Part shown: positions 11,912 to 63,674 of the stretch, in pieces | How positions within the stretch are numbered: the first letter of the stretch is position 1 | Layout of the letters: the number at the start of each line of letters is the position of its first letter | Source of the DNA: Chrysomallon squamiferum | Lineage: Eukaryota > Animalia > Mollusca | Direction of reading: 5' to 3' | Length of the DNA stretch: 64,000 bases | NCBI GenBank assembly: GCA_012295275.1 | Contig: CM022665.1 | Location: 48,856,001-48,920,000, forward strand | Notes under the pieces: model-generated | What the model saw: the letters and a program-made list of their open reading frames with translations, nothing else | The model's database searches: none | Told to the model about the DNA's origin: nothing | Position numbers and translations under genes: made by a program

Positions 11912-14900
11912 TCACGTTGTTCTGATTTTGCCAGGAACATAATTCTTGTCGATCACGGGCTCCTGGAGAAACATGTGCAGACACTTTTCATTCTGTGCCA
12001 GTGGATGTCCAGCCACCCTGAAACAACCACATTGTAATAAAAACACACAGTCAATACTTTCAGTTGTCTCACTGCAACCTTTGCTAATAATAGATAAATT
12101 ATACATCTACGGTGATTTTTAAAAGTCAAAACTTACACTTATTTCAGTTACAGCAACCTTTGCTAATAATAGATAAATTATGCATCTACGGTGATTTTTA
12201 AAAGTCAAAACTTACACTTATTTCAGTTACAGCAACCTTTGCTAATAATAGATAAATTATGCATCTACGGTGATTTTTAAAAGTCAAAACTTACACTTAT
12301 TTCAGTTACAGCAACCTTTGCTAATAGTAGTCAGATAAATTATACATCTACAGTGATTTTTAAAAGTCAAAACTTACACTTATTTCACTGTTACAGCAAC
12401 CTTTGCTAATAGTAGTCAGATAAATTATACATCTACAGTGATTTTTAAAAGTCAATACTTTCACAAATTATACATTTTTAAAACTGTTACAGCAACCTTT
12501 GCTAATAATCAAAATCTACAGTGATTTTTAAAACACTTATTTCACTGTTACAGCAACCTTTGCTAATAGTAGTCAGATAAATTATACATCTACAGTGATT
12601 TTTAAAAGTCAAAACTTACACTTATTTCACTGTTACAGCAACCTTTGCTAATAGTAGTCAGATAAATTATACATCTACAGTGATTTTTAAAAGTCAAAAC
12701 TTACACTTATTTCACTGTTACAGCAATGTTTGCTAATAATAGTCAGATAACAAATTATACATCTACAGTAATTTTTAAAATTCGGTACATTCAGATTTTT
12801 TCACTGATACAGCAACATTTGCTAATAATAAAATCAGATAACAAATTATACATCTACAGTAATTTCAACAAGTCACTACATTCTGTTTTTTCACTGATAC
12901 AGCAACATTTGCTAATAATAAAATCAGATAACAAATTATACATCTACAGCGATTTTAACAACAGTCACTACATTCACTGATTTCATTGCTAACTTGAGCA
13001 TCTGATAACTGTAACAACTGTGAGAAGGAACAATTCACAGCAGACGTCTGTAGACAGGTAACTACTGTCACTCTGTCGCGTGAATCATCGCTGTAAAATA
13101 GCTGTTGCACTAATGACTTAGTTGCAAGTACAAATGCATTTTAATCACAGTGACAACAATTTATTCAACAGCTGTTTACATTTCAAAGTGAGTCTGAAGT
13201 TTAAATACTTTTTGTACACTTCTGTGGTTTCTGTTTTCTTAATTTCTGGCCATTTCGTGTAACTAACACAAATAGTAAAAAACAGGCAGTATACACAAGA
13301 TAAGGTAATCCACTATTTGTACCGTCAACAAAGGGAGATTTTAAAAAGTATACTGATTAAAAAAAAAATAAAAAAAAAAAAAAGGAATCACAAATATAAT
13401 AAATTGATGTATTCTATATAGTGTTGTCTAATGCACACTGTCTGCATACTGTGTGAATCTTGTCAACTGATGACTGCTCTTCGCTAACATTCCCAATCAG
13501 CAGATTAATAACCACTTACATTTTACATATTACTGAATACTCACTTGTTGATAAACTGCTCCAGCCCTTTCCTTCTCTCTTCAATGAAATCTTCTTCAAA
13601 AATACCGTCGTCTCCTCGGAATGGAAGCTGTCTCTTCAAAGCTTTGCCGGGTAATGGCGGAACAACGATCTAGTTAAACAACATGCAAAACATATAAAAT
13701 ATTATGTCTAACATTAGATTCATGCTGAATATGATAAAAACCCAACTGTAACACAAACTTTCTCAACAGAGTGACTTTAAAATGTTGCTATAATGGTTTA
13801 ATGTCTCAGATTTAATTTTATTCATATTACAGTTGAAGTGAATAGTACTAACTGTAACACAGTTGACAAAAAGTGATTATTAGAAACAACGTGACTAACT
13901 CACTATCTCTAGTTCATATGATAGATTACAAGAAGTGATGCAAAAATGATTATTAGAAATACATGATTATCTTACTATCCTAGTTCATATGACAGATTAC
14001 AAGAAGTGATGTAAAAATGATTAGAAGAAACACTTTGAATACCTTGCTATGTCTAGTTGATATGAATGATTAGAAGAAACACTTTAATACCTTGCTATCT
14101 CTAGTTGATATGAATGATTAGAAGAAACACTTTGAATACCCTGCTATCTCTAGTTGATATGAATGATTAGAAGAAAAACTTTGAATACCTTGCTATCTCT
14201 AGTTGATATGAATGATTAGAAGAAACACTTTGAATACCTTGCTATCTCTAGTTGATATGAATGATTAGAAGAAAAACTTTGAAAAATATGAATGATTAGA
14301 AGAAACACTTTGAATACCTTGCTATCTCTAGTTGATATGAATGATTAGAAGAAACACTTTGAATACCTTGCTATCTCTAGTTGATATGAATGATTAGAAG
14401 AAACACTTTGAATACCTTGCTATCTCTAGTTGATATGAATGATTAGAAGAAACACTTTGAATACCTTGCTATCTCTTTCTAATTCATTACGTAGCCACTC
14501 AAAATCACTGTAGCGACGTCTTGAGGTACATTCCTTCAACTTGAAAACAGGCAGGTTAGTCTACAAGCAAATCAAACCATTTATATTATAATAAGAACAT
14601 TTTAATATTACAGCAAATTGAAAATTTAAAACATACACTCTTGATAATAATAAAAATTATATACATATATATACATTGTGGGCAATTCCACACCAAAACA
14701 ATCACCTTCCAATTTTGATAAAATTTCACTCATTTGTGCATCCTTATAAATGATGAAAGCATGCAAAATTTTGGAACCAACATCTTATCAATTTTTAAAG
14801 TATGGTGCCGTATTCCTATTTTTGGGACTCAAAACTATGTTGAGTGATTATGGGTTATTTCTAAATGCTAATAACTTTAACCATTATAAAGATATTGAGC

Positions 14901-62500: not shown

Positions 62501-63674
62501 CTCTGTAGTATCCTATACAAATATTTGACTGTTGTTCTGTTTGTTTCAGGACTCTGTAGTAATGTGAGATTATTTAGTTTGTTTTGTTTGTTTCAGGACT
62601 CTGTAGTAATGTGAGATGATTTAGTTTGTTTTGTTTGTTTCAGGACTCTGTAGTAATGTGAGATGATTTAGTTTGTTTTGTTTGTTTCAGGACTCTGTAG
62701 TAATGTGAGAATATTTTGTTTGTTCTGTTTGTTTCAGGACTCTGTAGTAATGTGAGATGATTTAGTTTGTTTTGTTTGTTTCAGGACTCTGTGGGTAACC
62801 TGTGAGAAATATTTAGTTTGTTTTGTTTATTTCAGGACTCTGTGGGTAAATATTTTGTTTGTTCTGTTTGTTTCAGGACAAATGTGAGATTTTTAGTTTG
62901 TTTTGTTTGTTTCAGGACTCTGTGGGTAACCTGTGAAATGATTTAGTTTGTTTTGTTTGTTTCAGGACTCTGTAGTATCCTGAGAATAAGATGATTTGTT
63001 TTGTTTCAGGACTGTTTGTTTTTGTTTTGTTTGTTTCAGGACTCTGCTGCAAACAACAACAAAGATGCGTACGCCAAGTTTTCCGAGTCTGCGAGGGAAA
63101 GCGCCAGACACTGCACTCTGCGAGGTCAGCTCGACTTTCACTTCATTGACAAACCTCTCGACCTGTCCGAGGTGGAGGAGGCCAAGGAGATCGTCAAGAG
63201 ATTCTGTACAGGTAAAACAGCTTTCCCATTCCAAACAGCACTCCGTGACTCGTTAATCAAAGGACACAATATATATATTTATAAATCTCTTTTGATTTAT
63301 TTTTCACTCTTTCATTAATTTTTTTTTTTTTATTTTATTTTCATTCCTTCATTCATTCATTTATTTATTCTTTCATTTATTTTTATTCATTTCTTCATTT
63401 TTTATTTTTTGTTTTCTCTATTTATTCATTTTATATTTTCATTCATTCATCCAGTGTTTATTTAGTTTGTTTTATTAAATTTGTTGTCACTGTTGTTGCT
63501 GTTGTTGTTGCAGGTGCTATGAGTTTTGGAAGTATTTCTTACGAATCACACACTGCGCTGGCAATAGCCATGAATCGAATCGGAGGAAAATCAAACACAG
63601 GGGAGGGGGGAGAGAACCCAGAACGTTATTTGAATGAAGATCCAAAGTTTAACAAGAGATCAAAAATTAAACAG
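41528..63674 (+). CDS. GLT1: Glutamate synthase (GOGAT, eukaryotic GLT1/NADH-type), 5' part; exons 41528-41653, 48188-48327 (corrupt), 49486-49609, 50084-50164, 51007-51051, 51475-51573, 51977-52113, 53225-53429, 54871-54982, 55413-55572 (corrupt), 55937-56056, 56907-57082, 57437-57587, 58032-58166, 58857-59017, 59555-59647, 60196-60409, 61146-61256, 61847-61981, 63040-63211, 63514-63674; continues beyond the window
   Basis: [16 protein letters not shown] (class-II amidotransferase N-terminal Cys after a propeptide), [91 protein letters not shown] and GAMSFGSIS...[11 protein letters not shown] are glutamate synthase signatures. Junctions are GT-AG and phases are consistent apart from exon 10. 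The NADH type is inferred from the animal context; the C-terminal beta-like domain is outside the window. Confidence 0.95.
43080..43400. repeat. Mosaic trinucleotide repeats (GTA/AAT/GAT/AAC)
   Basis: Direct observation; explains the poly-V/T/I ORFs. Confidence 0.9.
45250..45725. repeat. Compound (AT)/(GT) microsatellite with a higher-order unit (gtgtgtgtttctatatatgtat)
   Basis: Direct observation. Confidence 0.93.
47570..48175. repeat. ~310-bp tandem duplication upstream of GLT1 exon 2, first copy overwritten by GT runs
   Basis: tttgatcctg...ccaaacaaaatgtttctt at ~47580 and ~47898; ttttaacattgacat at ~47843 and ~48154. Confidence 0.75.
48322..48403 (+). repeat. 23-bp array of the GLT1 exon-2 donor (TCTCAG|gtgagaa), 4 copies
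   Basis: tctcaggtgagaaacgagaaaca repeated; the first copy is the true junction at 48327/48328. Confidence 0.9.
48976..49090. repeat. (CT)n(GT)n microsatellite
   Basis: Direct observation. Confidence 0.95.
52145..52350. repeat. ~58-bp tandem repeat, ~4 copies, just downstream of GLT1 exon 7
   Basis: tactttattcttagcaaagattgagccccattgattaatatttgttttgtttttcttg repeated. Confidence 0.92.
52785..53239 (+). repeat. 83/84-bp array containing the GLT1 exon-8 acceptor (acag|ATATCTGGCTCACAA), 6 copies
   Basis: acag starts at 52803, 52887, 52971, 53054, 53138 and 53221 (the true site). Confidence 0.95.
53450..54240. repeat. ~22-28-bp minisatellite (ttattattaaagggacactcagtgt), more than 20 copies
   Basis: Direct observation in GLT1 intron 8. 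Confidence 0.95.
54250..54884 (+). repeat. 45-bp array followed by a 37-bp array containing the GLT1 exon-9 acceptor (ttctag|GCTGTGATGACAAT)
   Basis: The 45-bp unit aataagctgtgtaactgtatctacaggtaatgttttgaggtatct has ~9 copies. The 37-bp unit has AG ending at 54759, 54796, 54833 and 54870 (the true site). Confidence 0.95.
56026..56340 (+). repeat. 107-115-bp triplication containing 31 nt of GLT1 exon 11 and its donor
   Basis: ACTCAGACCTGTTGAAACATGGCTGAAAGAG|gtagaaaca with the exon part ending at 56056 (true), 56163 and 56278. Confidence 0.95.
58669..58737 (-). mobile_element. tRNA-derived SINE head remnant
   Basis: The reverse strand agTAGCTAAAATGattgag...gtGGTTCAAATCCtgccag has Pol III A-box-like and B-box-like motifs at tRNA spacing. 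Confidence 0.5.
59889..60199 (+). repeat. ~157-bp tandem duplication ending on the GLT1 exon-17 acceptor
   Basis: ataacaaatattcatatatctaaactcac...gtaactgagaatattttg occurs twice. The upstream copy ends tgtggagaga, versus the true cgtag|AGAG. Confidence 0.9.
60440..60830. repeat. ~28-bp minisatellite (tagtttaagtctgttcaagtagact) just downstream of GLT1 exon 17
   Basis: About 12 copies visible. Confidence 0.92.
61750..61852 (+). repeat. 12-bp array (ctgtgttaacaa-like) terminating in the GLT1 exon-19 acceptor
   Basis: gttaac recurs at a 12-bp period, ending ctgtgttaacag|GCTGTC. Confidence 0.8.
61965..62330 (+). repeat. Duplication of the GLT1 exon-19 donor followed by a derived ~60-bp array
   Basis: CAATCGCAAACCTGCAG|gtga occurs at 61965-61985 and 62048-62068; ctctcagaaa.aatcct.gttatgttcattaatac is repeated. 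Confidence 0.9.
62365..63046 (+). repeat. ~47-bp array containing the GLT1 exon-20 acceptor (tttgtttcag|GACTCTG), ~15 copies
   Basis: tttagtttgttttgtttgtttcaggactctgtagtaatgtgagatga repeated. The last copy is the true junction at 63039/63040, and the distal copies are degenerate. Confidence 0.95.

What the first reader, a model, noticed from the sequence alone, without database searches (positions are those of the whole stretch)
13870..63046. Recurrent splice-junction-anchored, polarised tandem arrays across three unrelated genes
Seen: about 15 of roughly 76 junctions are the repeat unit of a tandem duplication or array. They are the SNX e2 donor; the AFG1L e5 donor, e6 acceptor, e8 donor and e12 acceptor; and the GLT1 e1, e8, e9, e17, e19 and e20 acceptors and e2, e11, e14 and e19 donors. 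The units are unrelated in sequence (12 to ~190 bp), so this is not one TE family. Each unit holds the splice site plus a few to ~31 exonic nt, and the array always extends into the intron. The functional copy is the exon-proximal one, and in the longer arrays divergence rises with distance from the exon. Established: tandem duplication over an AG|GT site is a proposed route to intron gain and growth, but it is normally regarded as sporadic. Inference: this genome has a process that repeatedly spawns new units at exon boundaries (for example splicing- or R-loop-linked breaks or slippage at nucleosome edges), growing introns from their ends. It would also need strict exon definition to ignore the decoys. 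I cannot confirm from here that it is undescribed.
Basis: partly seen in the sequence, partly recalled or inferred. Interest (0 to 1): 0.9.

Follow-up and report, generated by a model that had tools for sequence, protein, structure and literature searches.

The report
Splice-junction "mirage" repeats in a mollusc
In three ordinary genes of what is likely a mollusc, about one exon edge in five has been copied head-to-tail into the neighbouring intron, a repeat type already named "mirage" in lancelets and likely a by-product of very frequent local DNA duplication sifted by selection.

Summary
The observation largely holds. Units are local and unrelated. At the 2 junctions laid, DNA contigs from two studies carry the arrays, one run shows a shorter allele, and RNA-type contigs use the exon-proximal acceptor. 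This is the named "mirage" minisatellite of amphioxus (PMC3087553) and the human F7 VNTR layout (PMC1557585). This scan noted it before in annelid, urchin and shark DNA. The background is very high: 16-31% of intron positions also have a one-sided copy. Enrichment is nil against plain coverage, 1.2-2.4x against first-unit nulls (p 0.0005-0.27) and 1.7-2.8x per array given its intron. Polarity is a fresh exon end and a decayed far end (7-8 of 9), not a gradient. A special junction-targeted process is neither needed nor excluded. Residual hints are short exonic shares (15 of 15 at or below 0.48) and an AG|GT excess (post hoc p 0.01). No genome was held for a genome-wide test.

The parts
13868..14476 (-). 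SNX3 exon 2 donor array; 49-bp unit (12 exonic nt), 8 decoy donors, older ~71-bp units at the far end; real donor after 14465
20033..20152 (+). AFG1L exon 5 donor duplication, 59-bp unit, 2 copies, 90% alike; donor after 20053
20394..20806 (+). AFG1L exon 6 acceptor array, ~25-bp degenerate unit (weak, 28.5 bits); acceptor before 20795
22065..22850 (+). AFG1L exon 8 donor array, ~30-bp unit, 14 decoys; the exon and the first ~150 nt look scrambled in the assembly and the true exon end may lie near 22220
24532..24627 (+). AFG1L exon 12 acceptor array, ~20-bp unit, 5 units; acceptor before 24619
41129..41511 (+). Duplication of the acceptor before the first GLT1 coding exon, ~193-bp unit, 2 copies, 87% alike, only 3-4 exonic nt
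47575..48200 (+).
48322..48405 (+). GLT1 exon 2 donor array, 23-bp unit, 4 units; donor after 48327
52785..53241 (+). GLT1 exon 8 acceptor array, 84-bp unit (167-bp dimer), 5 decoys; real acceptor before 53225 used in spliced contigs; shorter allele in run X4
53460..54240 (+). Unanchored 63-bp and ~26-bp arrays in GLT1 intron 8 (background class); one X4 contig jumps 584 nt of it
54250..54887 (+). GLT1 exon 9 acceptor array: 37-bp junction unit x4 (14 exonic nt), preceded by ~11 copies of a related 45-bp unit that shares the intron part and carries AG|GT; real acceptor before 54871 used in spliced contigs
56026..56340 (+). GLT1 exon 11 donor array, 107-bp unit (31 exonic nt), 3 units; donor after 56056
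58159..58460 (+). GLT1 exon 14 donor, weak dispersed copies at +83 and +271 (22.8-26 bits); not a clean tandem array
59861..60199 (+). GLT1 exon 17 acceptor duplication, 155-bp unit, 2 copies, 91% alike, 4 exonic nt
61778..61845 (+). 12-bp array abutting the GLT1 exon 19 acceptor; not shown to span the junction
61965..62126 (+). GLT1 exon 19 donor duplication, 83-bp unit (17 exonic nt), 93% alike
62310..63046 (+). GLT1 exon 20 acceptor array, 30-51-bp unit (7 exonic nt), 14 decoys at >=11/14; most uniform in the middle

Best explanation
These are "mirage" minisatellites: local tandem duplications that include an exon-intron border, likely made by the same slippage or unequal-exchange process that duplicated about a quarter of the intron DNA here, and likely kept only when the exon-side splice site still wins. 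Shown: the arrays, their local origin, the high unanchored background, a shorter allele of one array, and use of the exon-proximal acceptor at two junctions. Inferred: (1) duplications arise throughout short (~400 nt) ancestral introns and often cross a border; (2) those that copy much exon (and its enhancers), or too little intron to keep a whole acceptor signal, are purged, which leaves short exonic shares; (3) exon definition and upstream-donor preference silence the decoys; (4) the exon-side copy is held intact by selection, so it stays a detectable template and the array decays mainly at its free end.
For: Arrays add 7470 of 30380 intron nt, about 3800 of them from anchored arrays. 19 of 33 duplication families are unanchored. 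16-31% of intron positions have a one-sided copy against 14-19% of junctions. Gapped first-unit null gives 1.2-1.7x, p 0.04-0.27. Collapsed lengths of introns with and without anchored arrays are equal (430 vs 444). Free arrays are often one-sided too: better end 0.91, worse end 0.82. DNA contigs of two studies cover the arrays and X4 skips 161 nt of the e8 acceptor array; X6 and X8 join 53429>54871 and enter exon 8 at the real acceptor. The same anatomy, normal splicing and length variation are described for amphioxus mirages (PMC3087553 passages; PMC3902484 passages). Upstream-donor use is shown for the F7 VNTR (PMC1557585 abstract), and cross-exon proximity for exon-defined sites (PMC9225289 abstract).
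Against: A residual excess remains under most collapsed nulls: ungapped 1.5-2.4x (p 0.0035-0.093), and 14 of 33 families anchored against 8.3 expected given their intron with any overlap allowed (p 0.016), or 5.0 if only 4-31 exonic nt are tolerated (p 5.5e-5; limit set after seeing the data). If selection purges the long-overlap class, the surviving class is over-represented about 2-4x, which selection alone does not supply. The exon end is the fresher end in 8 of 9 anchored arrays (p 0.02) and in 5 of 6 free intragenic arrays. In human data the downstream-acceptor preference under exon definition is a reduced upstream bias, not a strict rule (PMC9225289 section 9), so near-complete silencing of up to 14 identical decoy acceptors is not fully explained. 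Only 2 of 15 junctions were checked with reads, as contigs, which drop rare forms.
Confidence: 0.6

Rival explanations
1. Duplication breakpoints are truly biased to exon edges: new units would arise there more often, through splicing- or R-loop-linked breaks, nucleosome edges, or repair between divergent alleles that pair at conserved exons and slip where allelic homology ends. Introns would then grow from their ends.
For: Family-level excess 1.7-2.8x given the intron and 2.2-4.2x pooled. Exonic share <=0.48 in 15 of 15. Fresher exon end in 8 of 9 anchored and 5 of 6 nearby free arrays. The X4 run shows many allelic differences in these introns. A Nucella GLT1 gene model repeats the first ~20 residues of the exon that has a duplicated acceptor here (gene model only).
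Against: No excess against plain coverage, and p 0.04-0.27 in the gapped test. One window, chosen for the pattern; 10 of 15 cases are in one gene. No monotonic gradient: proximal beats middle in only 5 of 9. A conserved template lengthens detectability without any mutational bias (inference). Free array ends show no composition step (GC 0.249 inside, 0.266 outside, p 0.24). An earlier scan note reports no excess in a wider annelid sample (e1-9992352, unchecked).
Confidence: 0.27
2. The decoys are used or useful: AG|GT-bearing copies would allow stepwise (recursive) re-splicing that corrects a wrong choice, or would tune expression through nonsense-mediated decay.
For: AG|GT at 10 of 15 anchored against 20 of 57 other junctions (stratified p 0.01, post hoc); acceptors 4 of 8 against 3 of 28. 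61 of 61 close copies keep the dinucleotide. Run X8 holds the 37-nt unit cycle and an unspliced-looking e9 acceptor piece at depth 2-2.8. Tandem AGGT dual sites are used in human UBC (PMC10809524 abstract).
Against: A leave-two-out test shows no robust extra conservation of the dinucleotide (0.17 against 0.11-0.38 at 9/12; 0.02 against 0.02-0.20 at 10/12). No joint to a decoy in X6 or X8. The X8 pieces could come from one pre-mRNA fragment. The two junctions laid are not AG|GT.
Confidence: 0.09
3. Most arrays are assembly or polishing artefacts.
For: Three exons are garbled in the assembly (GLT1 e2 and e10, AFG1L e8). GLT1 e10 and AFG1L e8 share 15-22-nt pieces with neighbouring arrays. Spliced contigs differ from the assembly at the in-frame stop in e10.
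Against: Short-read contigs from two studies match the two arrays laid; one 460-nt X1 contig spans a decoy and the real e8 acceptor. Units carry ordered variants and dimers. One of the runs may be the assembly's source sample, and copy numbers are not confirmed.
Confidence: 0.04

Closest known systems
Amphioxus 'mirage' minisatellites (Adh3, globins BflGb6/BflGb9, troponin C, PGBD5); PMC3087553 and PMC3902484, passages read; Canestro et al. 2002 not held, known only as cited there
   Same: Tandem units spanning 5' or 3' exon-intron borders, 10-160 bp, many keeping AG/GT; normal splicing; copy number differs between haplotypes; homogenised interiors with excluded edges; several loci per genome.
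   Different: Likely a mollusc; high density (14-15 of 72 junctions); a null test and a polarity measure are added here. Somatic instability was not tested.
Human F7 intron 7 37-bp VNTR (PMC1557585, abstract read)
   Same: First unit spans the donor; identical downstream pseudo-sites stay silent; the upstream site is used.
   Different: A single donor-side locus in human. Here 8 of 15 cases are acceptors, for which the 5'-to-3' scanning rule does not explain the choice.
[quoted passage not shown]
   Same: Tandem duplication carrying splice signals; AG|GT is over-represented at anchored junctions.
   Different: The duplication spans an existing border and lengthens an existing intron; no new intron or exon is seen in the ORFs or the laid contigs.
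Dual-specific AGGT splice-site arrays (UBC; PMC10809524, abstract read)
   Same: Tandem units each carrying AG|GT, as in the 45-bp array of GLT1 intron 8 and several anchored units.
   Different: In UBC the sites are used; here no decoy use is shown.

Membership tests
Mirage minisatellite | Tandem unit spans an exon-intron boundary | tested here: met
   14 of 72 junctions at >=22 bits, 12 at >=30; units shown
Mirage minisatellite | Both donor and acceptor borders; units of tens to ~160 bp, locus-specific | tested here: met
   7 donors and 8 acceptors; 20-193 bp plus one 312 lag; no shared family
Mirage minisatellite | Many copies keep AG/GT | tested here: met
   61 of 61 copies at >=11/14 identity; more diverged copies do lose it
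Mirage minisatellite | Regular splicing at the authentic site | tested here: met
   2 of 15 junctions laid; one contig each in X6 and X8 uses the real e8 and e9 acceptors; rare forms not excluded
Mirage minisatellite | Length differs between haplotypes | tested here: met
   X4 contig skips 161 nt with 8 letters between (about two 84-bp units) in the e8 acceptor array; one contig, one run
Mirage minisatellite | Homogenised interior, diverged array boundary | tested here: met
   Median 0.93, far end 0.82; exon end 0.93; dimer structure at e8
Mirage minisatellite | Somatic instability | not testable with these tools
   Only assembled contigs were served
Rogers-type intron gain | Duplicated exonic AGGT segment is spliced out as a new intron | tested here: not met
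   Arrays lie inside single introns whose removal restores the ORF; e8>e9 is one GT..AG joint
Transposon-derived repeat family | Shared unit dispersed among loci | tested here: not met
   14 of 15 units have no hit outside their array in the window, one has a 26-nt hit; the rest of the genome was not available
Recursive / dual-specific splice-site array | Decoys are used as intermediates and conserved | tested here: inconclusive
   AG|GT excess p 0.01 post hoc; no robust dinucleotide conservation; no decoy joint in contigs

The most novel reading that the evidence does not exclude
Marine invertebrate genomes have a mutational bias that places tandem-duplication breakpoints just inside exon edges, for example where repair between divergent alleles runs out of homology or at splicing-linked breaks. 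Mirages would then be the genome-wide footprint of a process that grows introns from their ends, with AG|GT junctions favoured because mis-splicing there can be re-spliced.
Probability: 0.25. Interest if true: 0.7.

Novelty: new member of a known kind. Interest (0 to 1): 0.35.

Why it matters
As a known kind it is a dense example in a further phylum and a natural test bed for how the spliceosome picks one of up to 15 near-identical acceptors or donors. It also shows tandem duplication, not transposons, supplying about a quarter of the intron length in these genes. Ebner et al. call the mechanism of mirage formation unclear. If a genome-wide test confirmed a breakpoint excess at exon edges, it would link splicing or allelic divergence to where duplications form. 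Practically, such arrays mislead gene models and seem to corrupt neighbouring exons in assemblies.

Tried and rejected
No whole genome was held, so no genome-wide null. Read evidence covers only 52780-55000, i.e. 2 of 15 junctions; the other 13 are unchecked against reads. Bins without cover (X1 8 of 30, X4 1 of 30) are not evidence of absence. Extra conservation of decoy AG/GT looked significant (0 of 45 substitutions) but did not survive a symmetric leave-two-out test, so I rejected it. An old array at the GLT1 e5 acceptor scored 47 against a shuffle maximum of 52: rejected. A GC step at free-array ends as the cause of breakpoint placement: not seen. The greedy unit caller stopped early in several arrays, so its rank correlations were not used. 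The first null kept low-complexity positions in the denominator and overstated the first-unit enrichment (2.2-3.0x); replace it. Canestro et al. 2002 was not held. Nine literature searches found no genome-wide enrichment test of mirages and no mollusc report; the library lacks most subscription papers, so this is weak. No supplements were read; Ebner's additional files 4-6 (unit alignments and trees) may bear on polarity.
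Full report
Setting. 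The window is 29% GC and no whole genome is held. Best protein relatives are bivalves and gastropods at 69-83% over single exons, so it is likely a mollusc. I modelled SNX3 (4 exons, minus strand; PX domain), AFG1L (13 exons) and GLT1 (21 exons). This gives 35 closed introns (30380 nt) and 72 junctions. The ORFs are continuous except at three exons that look garbled in the assembly (AFG1L e8, GLT1 e2 and e10).

Observation. A self-alignment test asks whether the sequence across each junction has a copy on the intron side within 400 nt, with microsatellites masked. The GLT1 e19 acceptor is only abutted by a 12-bp array. A gapped version adds the GLT1 e2 acceptor (lag 312) but misses two short-unit arrays. 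Units are local and unrelated, carry 4-31 exonic nt, and give 61 close decoy sites, all with AG or GT.

Real DNA, real splicing. Nine runs from three studies hold a window gene, all as assembled contigs. On 52780-55000, DNA-type runs X1 and X4, from two studies, cover 22 and 29 of 30 bins. One 460-nt X1 contig spans a decoy and the true e8 acceptor. X4 shows a 161-nt skip in that array and a 584-nt jump in the free 26-bp array (what lies between is not known). X6 (RNA) and X8 (library not on record, but spliced; same sample as X4) each give one contig that enters exon 8 at the real acceptor and joins 53429 to 54871, skipping all decoys. X8 also holds the 37-nt unit cycle and a 46-nt piece across the e9 acceptor at depth 2-2.8; this could be pre-mRNA or decoy use and may be a single fragment. 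The spliced contigs differ from the assembly at the stop codon in e10, so local assembly errors exist, and two garbled exons share 15-22-nt pieces with neighbouring arrays.

Is it more than chance? The background is very high. Arrays add 7470 of 30380 intron nt, and 16-31% of intron positions have a one-sided copy against 14-19% of junctions, so plain coverage shows no enrichment (p 0.5-1.0). A fairer null counts only first units over collapsed, unmasked intron: 1.5-2.4x ungapped (p 0.0035-0.093) and 1.2-1.7x gapped on 2500 sampled positions of 24487 (p 0.04-0.27). One search gave 2.2-3.0x (p 0.0005-0.006) but kept masked positions in the denominator. Expected values given the intron are 8.3 with any overlap (p 0.016), 7.2 with 4-60 nt (p 0.004) and 5.0 with 4-31 nt (p 5.5e-5, a limit taken from the data); pooled values are 6.4, 5.2 and 3.3. 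The exonic share of the unit is <=0.48 in 15 of 15. So a modest excess is likely in this window, but the window was selected for it and 10 of 15 cases are in GLT1.

Polarity. With hand-set bounds the proximal third is more uniform than the distal in 7 of 9 and than the middle in 5 of 9; 11 free arrays split 6 to 5. With automated bounds, and the AFG1L e8 start moved past the garbled part, it is 8 of 9 (p 0.02): exon end 0.93, median 0.93, far end 0.82. Free arrays have a median of 0.93, a better end of 0.91 and a worse end of 0.82. The pattern is an undecayed exon end, not a steady gradient; AFG1L e6 and GLT1 e20 are most uniform away from the exon. In 5 of 6 free intragenic arrays the fresher end also faces the nearer exon, which fits either lower divergence or more duplication near exons.

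Mechanism. Most likely (0.6): ordinary local duplication at a very high rate in short ancestral introns (collapsed medians 430 and 444 nt with and without anchored arrays), filtered by selection. Events that copy much exon or leave an incomplete acceptor would be purged, exon definition would favour the exon-side site, and the constrained copy would persist as template. These steps are inferred. Support from print: upstream donor use in the F7 VNTR (PMC1557585, abstract) and cross-exon proximity (PMC9225289, abstract and section 9), although that paper reports only a reduced upstream bias for acceptors. Rival (0.27): a true breakpoint bias at exon edges, supported by the residual excess, short exonic shares and fresh exon ends. 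Rival (0.09): functional decoys. AG|GT occurs at 10 of 15 anchored against 20 of 57 other junctions (stratified p 0.01, post hoc), but the dinucleotide is not robustly more conserved than its neighbours. Artefact (0.04).

Known kind. Tandem duplications of exon-intron boundaries are named 'mirages' in amphioxus Adh3, globins, troponin C and PGBD5, with normal splicing, haplotype length variation, excluded cluster edges and an unclear mechanism (PMC3087553 passages; PMC3902484 passages). I took the term from an earlier scan note and checked it in these papers. The original 2002 paper was not held. All mirage features testable here are met, two of them on only two junctions. Rogers-type intron gain is not met (PMC4974935 and PMC2812944, passages). 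PMC13196383 (passages) added nothing specific, and PMC10809524 (abstract) shows tandem AGGT sites can be used in human UBC. Nine searches gave no mollusc report or genome-wide null test. Earlier unchecked notes of this scan record the same arrays in annelids, urchins, sharks and other invertebrates, with one wider sample showing no excess.

Verdict. Real, a new member of a known kind, with a modest and unresolved excess at junctions. Interest 0.35; the bolder reading has probability about 0.25 and would deserve 0.7.

Noticed in passing
window 48188-48327, 55413-55572, 21993-22220: GLT1 e2, GLT1 e10 and AFG1L e8 are frameshifted or scrambled in the assembly. e10 and e8 contain 15-22-nt pieces of neighbouring arrays and e2 contains (GT)n runs; spliced contigs differ from the assembly at the e10 stop. 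Likely mis-polishing near repeats.
   Followed up: partly
P0001 residues 365-388 and 440-510 (Nucella lapillus gene model): The first ~20 residues of the exon matching GLT1 e17 occur twice, 75 residues apart: a possible acceptor mirage at the same junction that is duplicated here. Gene model only; no DNA seen.
   Followed up: partly
P0002 (Tegillarca granosa model) and P0022 (unnamed): P0002 reads through a 13-residue tandem array in the intron matching GLT1 e8/e9; P0022 shows a 14-residue repeat right after the e17 end. Intronic arrays beside the same exons in other animals.
   Followed up: no
window 54734-54900: Run X8 holds the 37-nt unit cycle and a piece across the e9 acceptor at depth 2-2.8 while the rest of the intron has no cover: pre-mRNA or low-level decoy use.
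   Followed up: partly
window 54259-54753: 45-bp array x11 in which each unit carries CAG|GTAA, an acceptor-like end followed by a donor-like start; shares its intron part with the 37-bp junction unit.
   Followed up: no
window 6557-6800 and 9465-9760: Two intergenic arrays share one ~90-bp unit (80-100% in blastn pieces) within longer similar flanks; likely internal repeats of a dispersed element.
   Followed up: partly
window 27722-29245 (+): A single 507-codon exon with an Adaptin_N domain (beta-adaptin-like; AP4B1 is my recalled label) and no arrays; its start likely lies in a short exon near 27007.
   Followed up: partly
window 16418 (-) and ~16964 (+): SNX3 and AFG1L are head-to-head, with start codons about 550 nt apart, suggesting a shared promoter.
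   Followed up: no
window 34736-35303: A 568-nt (CT)n tract with rare interruptions.
   Followed up: no
window 12069, 24794, 52145, 53460, 58187, 60437: Six unanchored arrays begin 20-58 nt from a junction on the intron side; of the five profiled, four are fresher at that end.
   Followed up: partly
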